From Escherichia coli (lineage in GTDB: Bacteria > Pseudomonadota > Gammaproteobacteria > Enterobacterales > Enterobacteriaceae), in assembly GCF_044324875.1 (NCBI RefSeq), contig NZ_CP172185.1: a stretch of 64,000 nt of DNA, one strand, 5' to 3'. Of this stretch, positions 25,901 to 28,900 are shown one piece after another. Position 1 is the stretch's first letter. The number at the start of each line of letters is the position of its first letter. Made by a program: the position numbers.

Positions 25901-28900
25901 AAAAAGTTAATGCGTCGCGTAGTTCTTTAACACACGCATAGTTTTCTGCTTTCTCTGGGTCGCCGGTACGGTGTTCAGCTTCTTGTCTGCACCATTTGAT
26001 GACTTTCTCTGCGGCTGCGTGGAGACGCTGACGTTGCCAGTCGTATGTGTCGACCAGCCCATATGCGTGATTCTTTGCTTTGCTTAATTCAGCGACGAGG
26101 CATTCGGAATCAATCAAATTATTTTCCGCAGCGGACAGCGCTTGTTTAAGTCGCTCGATTTCTTGAGCCATGTAGTAGCCGGTTTTACTCCAGGTATCGA
26201 CATCATCGTCACTCATATCCAGTTCCATCGACGCCATCAGAACGGCGTCGTGATAGTTCTGGCTACCGCAGGTGATTGCAACGACGTAGGAGTCACTATT
26301 TTCTCGTTTATGGATAAGTACAACTGGGTTTTTGATCTTGCTCATTCCGCACCTCAGTAATTCATTAAAAATTTATATTCAATCAGCGCACCGAAAACGA
26401 CGGACGCCAGCAGCAGACCAAACAGCATGGACAGGAGGAATGACTTCATCGCTTTGCCTCCCGCTGTACGATTTTGTAGGCGCGCAGGATGTCGCGTGTT
26501 TTTCCTGACAACGATGACTTAACCCAGAAAAAGCCGCTGCGGTTTTCATAGATCCCCTGTACATTAAACAGCACCGCATCAACAACGCGGTTATGCTTTT
26601 GCAATGTCAGGCAGGAACTGGTGATCACGATGTTCGCTACGGCGCCATAGTCCTTGTATTGGATTTTCATTTACATGTTCCCCATAACGGTATCGCTCAT
26701 GTCGTTAACCATGCTCTGCCAGATTTCTTTGCCGCTTTGCGTCAGCTCGTTTCCACGAACGCATTTGCTTAACAGCTGAATACCAACGGCTTCCCATTGG
26801 GGGTAATTTTCTTTGATAGCCTTCAGAGCATAACCATCGATTAAATCCCTGATACCTTTAACCCCACCGATGATGTTTACTCGTATGGATTGCCCATTGA
26901 CATTAATCATGAAATGATCTCCGTTGGTGGCGGATATGTGGTTGTGCAGTGCAGCCGCATACTGATTTGCCAGCGCATTGAGGCGGAAATTTTGTGTAAT
27001 GAGTGGCATTATTTACCCTCCCAACCAATCACCTGAAACAGCCCCATTTTCGGGTGATACCAGCGGGTACCGCGTGGCTCTGCCTCTGACATCATCTGAT
27101 GAAATGCTTTCATGAACGGCTCAAGCTCCACGATAGCCCGGCGAGAAAGAAGACCATCTGGCGTCATAAATTCGTGCGTATCGGTTGGGATGCTGTAGGC
27201 ATTGACCAGATTGCGGCACTTGGCATCAGTCATTCCGCTTTTGGCGACCACCTGGCGATAACCGACATATCCGGCGCGCATATTTCCGCGTTTGATGTTC
27301 TCCACAGCTTTGGTGACCGTTTCGATCTTCTCTTCAACATGACTCAGGCGCTTCTGCTGGCGAACGGCATCGGCGGCCATTGCAGCGATCATCTCCATTT
27401 CCGTCAGCGGCGCGTGAGTTCGGAAATAGCTGTTAACCAGTTCGCGCTGAACCTGCCATGCAAGAGTATCGTTAAAAGGCTTCGTCAACATCAGGTAACC
27501 AGACTCGAAAAGAATGATCCCTTTGGCAGTTCGCGCGGCAAAGGCATCAGAAAGTGACTCCGTACGTATTACGTCCGCAGTCATTTCAAGAAAATCCACC
27601 CCTTCGATAAAGTGAGAACGGTTGCGGTTAAACGCAGCACGGGCGGTACCTTCCGGGCGCTGGTGGACGTCATCAATCATTGCAAATGTCACAACACGCT
27701 GACCGCGATATTCGATTACCGGAAACTGTTTGTTGTTGATGGTTACAGTATTCATTTTTATCTCCAGACAGCCCGGCGTGTAATACCGGGCATATGTATT
27801 ACTTAACCTGAATAAATGGTGTGTTGGCACCGCTGGTCATGTATTGCGGCAGTGTACCGTTCCACTTGTTGATGGCTTCCAGCTCCATAACGTTTGGGTT
27901 CTGGCGCAGAGCTTCACCGCGTAAACGAATAGCATCGGCTTCGGCCTGGGCTTTTGTGCGAATCGCATCTGCCTGTCCGGCAGCTTCCGCGCGCAACATG
28001 TTGGCTTCCGCTTCGCGCTGTTTTACTTCCTGCTCGCGTTGCAGGGTTTTCTGGTTGGCCGTGACTTTGGCATTAATGCTGTCGATAACAGTAGGCGGGT
28101 ACTCCGGCTTACCCACATATGAGAGGCTCATTACCTGAATACCGATGGGCGTCATTTCTTCCTGAATGTCTTTAAGAGCTGCATCCAGCAGCTCAGACTT
28201 GCCGCCGTCGATAAATTTGTCGGTGGTCATTTTGCTGGCCAGTCGGTTGAGTGCGTCGGCTATCTTCTGGCGCAGGTCGGTGTCGGTAATGTCGTCCACG
28301 CCTTTGCGGTAGGTCTGAAAGACTGTGGTAACTTTGGATGGATCAACTTTGTAGGCCACGCCGATGTGATAGCCGATGGTTGTACCGTCACTCATCTGGA
28401 AACTGAATGGATCATCGTAGGTCTTCATCTGCTTAAAGGTCGGGAAGATGTAAACCTCAGTGTTCCATCCCGTCCAGTAGCGCCCAACACCGACCACTTC
28501 ACCGACGCCTTTATCGTCGCCCAGTTTGTTTACTTTGATGCCCACATTACCAGGCTCAACGCGATCGCAACCGACAAGGCCAATGGTCGGCAGAACAATG
28601 GCTAAAGCAAAAAGTAATTTTTTCATCTTTTATCCTTAGAAAAAGAAAGACCCTTATAAATGGCATAAATGCAGGGCGGGGTCAGACACGCCAGAGCAAA
28701 GCCAGAAATCACTGCTATCGTATCCTTCATGGATATAAGGAACGGAACGAGTAATCCGTAAATGCATGCGATAATTGCCAGTAAAATTACTATTGTGAAA
28801 TACAGTCTCATTGGTCTGTGGTATCCCGATATTTTTAACCGACTGACAGCGCAATAAAGAGAATAATGATTTCTGTTAGTGTCAGCACTGTGGCAAGGAT

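What the first reader, a model, noticed from the sequence alone, without database searches (positions are those of the whole stretch)
27009..27755. ORF6N/KilA-N-type antirepressor-like gene in the early-left operon
The N-terminal ~100 aa resemble the ORF6N/KilA-N DNA-binding domain found in phage antirepressors; the C-terminal domain is unassigned. It lies directly next to the SPFH pair and may be functionally linked to it or to immunity control.
Basis: partly seen in the sequence, partly recalled or inferred. Interest (0 to 1): 0.3.

Follow-up and report, generated by a model that had tools for sequence, protein, structure and literature searches.

The report
ORF6N "Bro-network" prophage early regulator gene
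This is a real but ordinary accessory gene of an E. coli lambda-like prophage: a two-domain, probably DNA-binding regulator of the well-known domain-swapping Bro/KilA/Rha/Ant family, already annotated in public databases, not tied to its SPFH neighbours, and called an "antirepressor" by label and position only.

Summary
Window 27009-27755 (-) is a 248-aa gene under purifying selection (pN/pS 0.17). It has an ORF6N domain (Pfam 50.2 bits, cut-off 27.8) and a full-length match to PHROG 1726, labelled "anti-repressor". An identical protein is already annotated in RefSeq.

The proposed SPFH link is not supported. SPFH is the upstream neighbour in only 26 of 66 distinct loci, and SPFH is present in 555 E. 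coli genomes against 68 for this gene.

"Antirepressor" is unproven. There is no KilAC/P22-Ant domain, no LexA box and no C4 RNA, and the protein does not covary with repressor type. In its favour, Rha-type proteins with the same C-module occupy both C4-RNA/icd "ant" slots of P1-like phage D6. The gene lies in a repressor-controlled leftward operon, as does Fels-1 FsoA.

Verdict: ordinary, low interest.

The parts
27009..27755 (-). CDS, 248 aa: ORF6N domain-containing protein (Bro-network regulator)
   Evidence: ORF and translation. Identical RefSeq CDS. PHROG 1726 full length, E=1e-69. pN/pS 0.17.
27420..27755 (-). N-terminal ORF6N domain (aa 1-112 in the model; Pfam match aa 13-92 = nt 27480-27719)
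   Evidence: Pfam PF10543, 50.2 bits against cut-off 27.8. AF2 model shows strands and helices over 1-112 with pLDDT about 62-83. pN/pS 0.26.
27288..27401 (-). Long linker helix (aa 119-156), a putative coiled-coil dimerisation element
   Evidence: A single helix H119-156 in the AF2 model. One heptad register has 9 of 11 hydrophobic a/d positions. Dimerisation is inferred, not shown.
27012..27284 (-). C-terminal module (aa 158-248): winged-HTH-like core plus a conserved W-x-H-P-K-M-G-x-F end. No Pfam model exists; stand-alone forms fall in phrog_6610.
27762..27765 (-). Shine-Dalgarno GGAG, 6 nt upstream of the ATG
   Evidence: Read from the sequence. A GGAG/GAGG/AAGG-type purine-rich box at this position in nearly all loci.
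27007..27011 (-). TAATG stop/start overlap with the downstream 112-aa gene (26671-27009): translational coupling
   Evidence: Read from the sequence. Most listed loci show an ATGA or TAATG overlap, or an ATG/GTG start 2-3 nt after the stop, although at least 6 different downstream sequences follow.
30912..30964 (-). P_L-like promoter (-35 TTGACA 30959-30964, 17-nt spacer, -10 TAACCT 30936-30941) overlapped by the 34-bp palindromic operator 30912-30945. This is the presumed transcription start of the leftward operon that contains the gene.
   Evidence: Sequence. The palindrome and the related half-sites at 31661-31752 between cI and cro. Function is inferred from the sequence pattern only.

Best explanation
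The gene encodes an accessory early regulator of the 'Bro network', the domain-swapping Bro-N/KilA-N/ORF6N/Rha/AntA family of phage proteins, in an E. coli lambdoid prophage integrated next to mlrA.

Shown: the protein has an N-terminal ORF6N domain, a long helix, and a small C-terminal module that is strongly conserved and has a MerR/excisionase-like winged-HTH core. The gene is a self-contained unit at a fixed place late in the leftward operon, a few genes before xis/int, while its neighbours on both sides are exchanged freely.

Inferred: it is transcribed from the repressor-controlled P_L only after the cI-like, LexA-family repressor has been inactivated. It dimerises through the helix. It acts through DNA binding and/or protein binding to modulate repression or transcription during lytic development. 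The variable N-domain would give target specificity and the conserved C-module would be the common effector, by analogy with Listeria AriS. The SPFH/membrane-protein pair upstream is an independent inserted cassette, not a partner. Whether the activity is true antirepression is open. If it is, it would act as reinforcement after induction or in trans on other resident prophages, like Fels-1 FsoA, and not as the trigger of induction.
For: Identity: Pfam ORF6N; PHROG 1726 over the full length; identical RefSeq protein.

Domain shuffling: among 26 C-module proteins the N-domain is Rha in 10, ORF6N in 3, Bro-N in 2, KilA-N in 2 and AntA in 1. The network is described in PMC10111431.

Constraint: the C-module has pN/pS 0.074 and the N-domain 0.26.

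Fixed position with variable neighbours.

Repressor-controlled operon. No separate promoter or canonical terminator next to the gene.

Precedents: in AriS the N-domain swaps, the conserved C-domain is the effector, and the protein is annotated as an anti-repressor but is not one (PMC9043618). CapR of the PLE satellite is a DNA-binding repressor (PMC10111431). FsoA is a left-operon, repressor-controlled antirepressor that acts in trans (PMC3121763).
Confidence: 0.55

Rival explanations
1. It is a true antirepressor. The protein binds a cI-type or C1-type repressor protein and removes it from its operators, as P1 Ant, P22 Ant or Fels-1 FsoA do. Because it is made only after P_L is derepressed, it would lock in the lytic decision or induce heteroimmune co-resident prophages or satellites.
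For: The best PHROG families are all labelled anti-repressor. In P1-like phage D6 both C4-antisense-RNA/icd operons end in a protein with this same C-module, translationally coupled to icd. This is the slot that ant1/ant2 occupy in P1 immI. The two proteins are gp109 (72% identical in the module, C4 RNA at 69.6 bits) and gp045 (53% identical, C4 RNA at 76 bits). In phiP27 and Stx phages a Rha + C-module protein lies just after cro in the early-right operon. FsoA shows that a left-operon, repressor-controlled antirepressor acting in trans exists (PMC3121763).
Against: No ANT/KilAC, AntA or P22_AR domain is present. The KilAC protein of phage Fnu1 is only a weak structural match (rank 48, E 0.8). 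There is no LexA box above chance, no C4/IsrK RNA and no own promoter. Protein identity does not track repressor identity: Spearman rho is -0.07 (p=0.56), and all 17 loci with a protein at least 93% identical to the window's carry a repressor at most 60% identical or undetectable. That argues against a cognate-specific partner, though broad-range antirepressors do exist. The resident repressor is a LexA-family protein that does not need an antirepressor. Both globular domains look like DNA binders. AriS carried the same label and turned out otherwise.
Confidence: 0.3
2. It is a host-directed effector or toxic 'Kil'-type protein, for example an inhibitor of cell division or of the SOS response, like P1 KilA, phi11 Gp07 or the KilAC domain of AriS.
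For: Other Bro-network proteins have such activities: AriS inhibits SOS (PMC9043618), and overexpressed phi11 Gp07 (Bro + KilA domains) inhibits growth and causes filamentation of E. coli (PMC5944126, abstract listed). The C-module is strongly conserved across very different phage backgrounds (lambdoid, P1-like, APSE), as expected if it targets a conserved host factor. It does not covary with phage immunity type.
Against: Those activities map to the KilAC domain, which is absent here. There is no PADLOC or toxin-family hit. The winged-HTH-like fold points to nucleic-acid binding. There is no direct evidence of toxicity.
Confidence: 0.12
3. It works together with the adjacent SPFH protein and its 62-aa membrane partner as a three-gene module.
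For: The genes are adjacent, 43 bp apart, in this window. The same adjacency is seen in 26 of 66 distinct viral loci, in several E. coli genomes and in phage Fraca.
Against: 40 of 66 loci have a different upstream neighbour, and in 28 of them the p212-like gene abuts the ORF6N gene directly, so the SPFH pair behaves as an inserted cassette. That cassette carries its own 3' GC hairpin, which is absent from the other contexts. SPFH occurs in 555 E. coli genomes, including about 198 plasmid places, against 68 genomes for this gene. phiP27 and the Stx phages have the SPFH pair without the gene. There is no translational coupling between SPFH and this gene, whereas the gene is coupled to whatever lies downstream.
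Confidence: 0.04

Closest known systems
Bro-network / KilA-N-superfamily domain-swapping phage regulators (Iyer, Koonin and Aravind 2002, cited from knowledge; 'Bro network' in PMC10111431)
   Same: The N-terminal domain belongs to the defining set (ORF6N). The C-terminal module recombines with Rha, Bro-N, KilA-N and AntA N-domains. The genes are found in early or regulatory regions of temperate phages and in satellites.
   Different: The particular C-terminal module has no Pfam model and no described function. It forms a small family of 46 representative clusters.
PHROG 1726 'anti-repressor' and RefSeq 'ORF6N domain-containing protein' (WP_089580989.1); phage homologues in phi467, CharmingMan and Fraca
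   Same: The architecture is the same over the full length, with 80-100% identity.
   Different: Nothing differs: this is the same family. The names are labels from annotation and have not been tested.
P1 Ant1/Ant2 (immI: c4-icd-ant) and the two D6 'Ant' proteins gp109 and gp045
   Same: The D6 proteins share the C-module (72% and 53% identity). They sit in the C4-RNA-controlled, icd-coupled slot where P1 has its proven antirepressor.
   Different: According to the literature quoted, P1 Ant carries AntA and KilAC domains, which are absent here. The window gene has an ORF6N head rather than Rha. It is not preceded by C4 RNA or icd and lies in a lambdoid P_L operon.
Listeria phage AriS (AntA/Bro-N/Rha + KilAC; PMC9043618)
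   Same: Both are two-domain proteins annotated as anti-repressor, with an N-domain that swaps between relatives and a conserved C-domain. AriS is a precedent that the two halves carry separate activities and that the label can mislead.
   Different: The C-domain is different (KilAC, not this module), the host phylum is different, and no SOS-related evidence exists here.
Fels-1 FsoA and Gifsy GfoA/GftA antirepressors (PMC3121763)
   Same: FsoA is encoded in the left operon under control of a cleavable CI-type repressor and acts in trans on another prophage. That is the same regulatory logic this gene would need if it were an antirepressor.
   Different: Those proteins are small and single-domain, and they were not among the homologues found here. 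The Gifsy antirepressors are LexA-controlled, and no LexA box is present here.
MerR/excisionase (Xis, TorI, AlpA) winged-HTH DNA-binding domains
   Different: There is no sequence similarity (6-15% identity). The module has an extra helix and a three-strand extension with an invariant H-x3-G-x-F motif. The resemblance is in fold only, so membership is not claimed.

Membership tests
ORF6N domain family (Pfam PF10543) | Profile match above the curated gathering score | tested here: met
   50.2 bits against 27.8, E=3.1e-13, aa 13-92 covering profile positions 3-85 of 86.
KilA-N superfamily fold (APSES-like) | Three-dimensional similarity of the N-domain to solved KilA-N/APSES-type structures | tested here: inconclusive
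   Foldseek of the full-length model against PDB gave no hit at E<=0.001. The best hits were Ski/Dachshund DHD domains (probability 0.9-0.97, E 0.06-0.3), and the matched region is not reported.
Bro network of domain-swapping phage proteins (PMC10111431) | Carries one of the network's N-terminal domains | tested here: met
   ORF6N is one of the ten listed Pfam domains.
Bro network of domain-swapping phage proteins (PMC10111431) | Its other segment is found joined to different network domains in other proteins | tested here: met
   The C-module is joined to Rha (10), ORF6N (3), Bro-N (2), KilA-N (2) and AntA (1) among 26 proteins. phiP27 L14 and D6 gp109 are Rha + C-module.
P1 Ant / KilA-type antirepressors | ANT/KilAC domain (PF03374) or AntA domain (PF08346) | tested here: not met
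   No such Pfam hit, even at E<=1. A KilAC-labelled protein is only a weak structural match (rank 48, E 0.8).
P1 Ant / KilA-type antirepressors | Placement in an immI-type operon (C4 antisense RNA - icd - ant) | tested here: not met
   No C4, c4-a1b1 or IsrK match in window 23000-33000. The feature is met for the C-module relatives in D6.
P22 Ant-type antirepressors | P22_AR_N / P22_AR_C domains | tested here: not met
   No Pfam hit.
Antirepressor (functional class) | Binds a phage repressor and abolishes operator binding | not testable with these tools
   This needs pull-down, EMSA or reporter assays. The only indirect test was covariation with the repressor type, and none was found (Spearman -0.07, p=0.56).
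SOS-controlled antirepressors (Gifsy GfoA/GftA, 186 Tum, N15 AntC) | LexA box at the gene's own promoter | tested here: not met
   CTGT-N8-ACAG with at most 1 mismatch gave 17 matches in the window against 18.9 expected. The single nearby match (27733-27748) lies inside the coding sequence. No promoter-like site lies next to the gene.
SPFH-associated operon partner | Conserved co-occurrence and adjacency with the SPFH gene | tested here: not met
   SPFH is the upstream neighbour in 26 of 66 distinct loci. SPFH is in 555 E. coli genomes against 68 for this gene. phiP27 has SPFH without this gene.
MerR/Xis-type winged HTH (C-module) | Fold match to solved members | tested here: inconclusive
   [not shown]
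Known anti-phage defence systems (PADLOC) | Match to a defence-system protein model | tested here: not met
   No hit for this protein or for 7 neighbouring proteins.

The most novel reading that the evidence does not exclude
The conserved C-terminal module (winged-HTH-like core plus the invariant H-x3-G-x-F end) could be a so far unnamed effector domain that defines its own class of immunity-control proteins. It would be used interchangeably behind ORF6N, Rha, Bro-N, KilA-N or AntA heads in lambdoid P_L/P_R operons. In P1-like phage-plasmids such as D6 it would replace the classical Ant behind C4 RNA and icd. Because it does not covary with the repressor type, it might act on a conserved host factor or on a general feature of repressor-operator complexes, and not on one cognate repressor.
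Probability: 0.15. Interest if true: 0.45.

Novelty: already known. Interest (0 to 1): 0.15.

Why it matters
It matters little for this locus. The gene is a catalogued family member (PHROG 1726; RefSeq "ORF6N domain-containing protein") in a typical mosaic accessory region of a lambdoid prophage. Three points are useful.

(1) The "anti-repressor" name on such genes is a transferred label and should not be read as a demonstrated function.

(2) The SPFH pair and this gene are independent modules, so the SPFH pair should be interpreted on its own.

(3) The C-terminal module is a compact, strongly constrained unit with no Pfam model, and it recurs in the C4/icd "ant" slots of phage D6. That gives a cheap, well-defined genetic test of whether this module carries antirepressor activity: does the virulence of a D6 c4 mutant depend on it? 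The answer would also inform the annotation of the homologues of this protein, of which 1776 were found here.

Tried and rejected
- NCBIfam: no family.
- PDB sequence searches with the whole protein and with the C-module profile: only chance-level hits.
- PADLOC for this protein and 7 neighbours: nothing.
- Rfam over window 23-33 kb at E<=0.1: nothing, so there is no C4/IsrK immunity RNA here.
- LexA-box search: chance level.
- Repeat search in and around the gene for a possible autoregulatory site, as Roi has (from knowledge): only short, chance-like matches.
- A second copy or paralogue in the window: none.
- The search for related loci with the mixed-architecture alignment A1 failed because no stretch was conserved enough. 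The single-protein scan of genome contigs returned only 15 loci, so neighbourhood statistics rest on 80 IMG/VR loci.
- The afdb50 fold library was unavailable, so BFVD was used instead.
- The idea that the downstream 112-aa gene is an obligate partner, suggested by the TAATG overlap and the phi467 synteny, was rejected. It is the downstream neighbour in only 8 of 66 loci, and at least six unrelated genes take that coupled position.
- Phi24B Ant (PMC3064807) was considered as a characterised relative and rejected. By the authors' description it is P22-Ant-like, and no Phi24B record appeared among the 60 of 64 phage hits that were listed.
- HK97/HK022 Roi: the D6 annotation says 'similar to HK97 Roi', but no HK97 or HK022 record appeared among the 60 of 64 phage hits that were listed. 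Any similarity probably lies in the N-domain of the D6 protein and not in this module.

Full report
**Observation.** The minus-strand ORF at 27009-27830 has its functional start at the ATG at 27755, six bases after a GGAG, and encodes 248 aa. Comparative data fix this start. In 66 non-identical related loci the DNA upstream of the ATG belongs to at least four unrelated contexts that diverge right up to the ribosome-binding site, while the coding sequence begins ATGAA(C/T)A in all of them. RefSeq annotates exactly this CDS, 100% identical, as "ORF6N domain-containing protein" (WP_089580989.1) in E. coli LH50-c. There it lies in a lambdoid prophage integrated beside mlrA. Against 61 unique orthologous CDS, pN/pS is 0.17, so this is a real gene under selection.

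**Domain content.** PHROG 1726 ("anti-repressor") matches the full length at E=1e-69. A PHROG of unknown function (6610) matches aa 122-247 alone. NCBIfam, PADLOC and PDB sequence searches give nothing.

**The C-terminal half.**
- Searched alone against 1.84 billion representative proteins, aa 112-248 finds only 46 clusters. Most are 230-290-aa proteins carrying the module at their C-terminus.
- An alignment of 26 of them shows a well-conserved module: G162, G201, H234, G238 and F240 are invariant, with a W-x-H-P-K-M-G-x-F end. The N-termini are unrelated to one another.
- Pfam identifies those N-termini as Rha (10), ORF6N (3), Bro-N (2), KilA-N (2) and AntA (1). This is the domain shuffling described for the "Bro network" (PMC10111431).
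- AlphaFold models (full length pLDDT 83; module alone pLDDT 85.5 and pTM 0.74) show an ORF6N domain, one long helix (aa 119-156), and a globular module. The helix has a heptad register with 9 of 11 hydrophobic a/d positions. The module has the order strand-helix-helix-strand-strand-helix followed by three short strands.
- BFVD gives a KilA-N protein of Ralstonia phage Eline (TMq 0.70) and some "antirepressor"-labelled proteins, but only a weak match to a KilAC protein.
- The module is the most constrained part of the gene: pN/pS is 0.074, against 0.26 for the ORF6N domain.

**Context.** Just downstream of the cI-like, LexA-family repressor gene (30989-31648) lies a P_L-like promoter: TTGACA, 17 nt, TAACCT. 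A 34-bp palindrome (30912-30945) overlaps it, and its half-sites recur between cI and cro. All genes from 30903 down to int (23655-24941) are co-oriented. No convincing promoter or canonical terminator flanks the ORF6N gene. Calling this the "early-left operon" is therefore reasonable, although it rests on sequence pattern only.

**Neighbourhood statistics.** Window proteins were compared by tblastn with 80 IMG/VR loci.
- The gene keeps its place late in the leftward operon, zero to a few genes before xis/int.
- The upstream neighbour is the SPFH pair in 26 of 66 distinct loci, a p212-like gene (phrog_1515) in 28, and something else in 12.
- In the window, p212 lies upstream of the SPFH pair. 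The pair therefore behaves as a cassette inserted between p212 and the ORF6N gene. It brings its own 3' GC hairpin (27771-27791), which is absent from the other contexts.
- SPFH DNA is present in 555 of 5426 complete E. coli genomes, with about 198 places on plasmids. The ORF6N gene is in 68.
- phiP27 has the SPFH pair without the gene, and phi467 has the gene without SPFH.
- The downstream gene is coupled in most listed loci, through an ATGA or TAATG overlap or a 2-3-nt gap, but at least six unrelated sequences take that place.

The gene is thus a self-contained unit in a mosaic region, and a functional link to SPFH is not supported.

**Is it an antirepressor?**

Evidence against, or neutral:
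- It has no KilAC/ANT, AntA or P22_AR domain.
- There is no LexA box above chance (17 matches against 18.9 expected) and no C4/IsrK RNA.
- The resident repressor belongs to the LexA family and does not need an antirepressor.
- Protein identity does not follow repressor identity: Spearman rho is -0.07 (p=0.56), and the 17 loci whose protein is at least 93% identical to the window's all have a repressor at most 60% identical or undetectable. It does not follow integrase type either.
- Listeria AriS, an AntA/Bro-N/Rha + KilAC protein annotated as an anti-repressor, turned out to inhibit the SOS response through its conserved C-domain (PMC9043618).

Evidence in favour:
- The same C-module occurs at 72-76% identity in Rha-headed proteins placed just after cro in phiP27 and many Stx phages.
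- In the P1-like phage D6, both C4-antisense-RNA/icd operons end in a C-module protein whose start overlaps the icd stop. These are gp109 (C4 at 69.6 bits plus its a1b1 targets) and gp045 (C4 at 76 bits). In P1 that slot holds the proven antirepressor. The P1 immI layout is taken from general knowledge and from PMC6799933.
- Fels-1 FsoA shows that an antirepressor can sit in a left operon under a cleavable CI-type repressor and act only in trans on another prophage (PMC3121763).

**Conclusion.** The best-supported reading is an accessory Bro-network early regulator. It has two putative nucleic-acid-binding heads on a probable coiled-coil stalk and is expressed after derepression of P_L. Its conserved C-module is the likely effector. 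A true antirepressor role has perhaps a 30% chance and can be tested simply. The finding is real but ordinary. The family is catalogued and this exact protein is already annotated. The new points are descriptive only: the nature and distribution of the C-module, its presence in the D6 ant slots, and its independence from SPFH.

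Noticed in passing
window 27771-27791 (minus strand), between the SPFH stop (27799-27801) and the ORF6N start: A GC-rich hairpin (GCCCGG-N9-CCGGGC) that folds as a 7-bp stem; the 52-nt segment containing it folds at about -14 kcal/mol. 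It lacks a U-tract. It travels with the SPFH cassette: a second SPFH variant has GCCCGGC-GTAAA-GCCGGGC at the same place, and loci without SPFH lack it. It could be a cassette boundary, an RNA-stability element or an attenuator.
   Followed up: partly
window 27799-28811 (SPFH plus the 62-aa membrane protein) and the 177-bp gap 28812-28987 upstream: The SPFH pair behaves like a moron-type insertion between p212 and the ORF6N gene. Weak promoter-like sites lie at 28999-28972 and 28799-28771 on the minus strand. Related SPFH DNA is in 555 of 5426 E. coli genomes, including about 198 places on plasmids of roughly 90-147 kb (phage-plasmids?).
   Followed up: partly
window 30912-30964 and 31661-31752: A 34-bp near-perfect palindrome (CTCGTAACC...GGTTACGAG) overlaps a P_L-like promoter directly after the cI stop. 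Related TTCGAAA-containing half-sites are repeated in the cI-cro intergenic region. These are likely the O_L and O_R operators of this immunity type.
   Followed up: partly
window about 27800-29700 compared with L001 (E. coli LH50-c): The window is 100% identical to LH50-c from int through the ORF6N gene and 98% in SPFH. Upstream it diverges: the 62-aa protein is 87% identical and there is no p212 homologue, and LH50-c instead has a ParE-family toxin-like gene and a frameshifted ORF. A recombination junction therefore lies near the SPFH cassette, and the window comes from a different mosaic prophage.
   Followed up: no
L100 2218-3402 and L102 28022-29443 (phage D6, NC_050154): D6 carries two separate C4-RNA / icd-like / 'Ant' operons. 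Both 'Ant' proteins end in the same C-terminal module as the window protein, with different N-terminal parts and, in gp045, an extra C-terminal tail.
   Followed up: yes
L010-L018 (Ruminococcus, Lachnospiraceae, Blautia and Clostridia MAGs); phage hits H130-H137: The ORF6N domain alone is 36-58% identical to proteins of Firmicutes, Geobacillus virus E3 and Fusobacterium phages, where it is joined to other C-termini (for example KilAC in phage FNU3). This is unusually high cross-phylum similarity for a phage regulatory domain.
   Followed up: no
hit H92, OM284015.1 (Elizabethkingia phage EKP1), 23410-24159: A phage recorded as infecting Elizabethkingia (Bacteroidota) encodes a full-length protein 84% identical to this enterobacterial prophage protein. 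This suggests a misassigned host, contamination or very recent transfer.
   Followed up: no
window 26671-27009, 26446-26670 and 25716-26345 (minus strand): Three co-oriented genes of unknown function (phrog_37628, phrog_1001, phrog_492) follow the ORF6N gene. The first is coupled to it by a TAATG overlap. This trio travels together in phi467 and about 8 viral loci but is replaced by unrelated genes elsewhere.
   Followed up: partly
[not shown]
   Followed up: no
window 30445-30903 (minus strand): The first gene of the leftward operon is a 152-aa HTH_3 protein. It matches a PHROG described as 'CII-like regulator' and is annotated DicA-like in phi467. It occupies the position where lambda has N, and no N-like antiterminator was recognised in this operon.
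   Followed up: no
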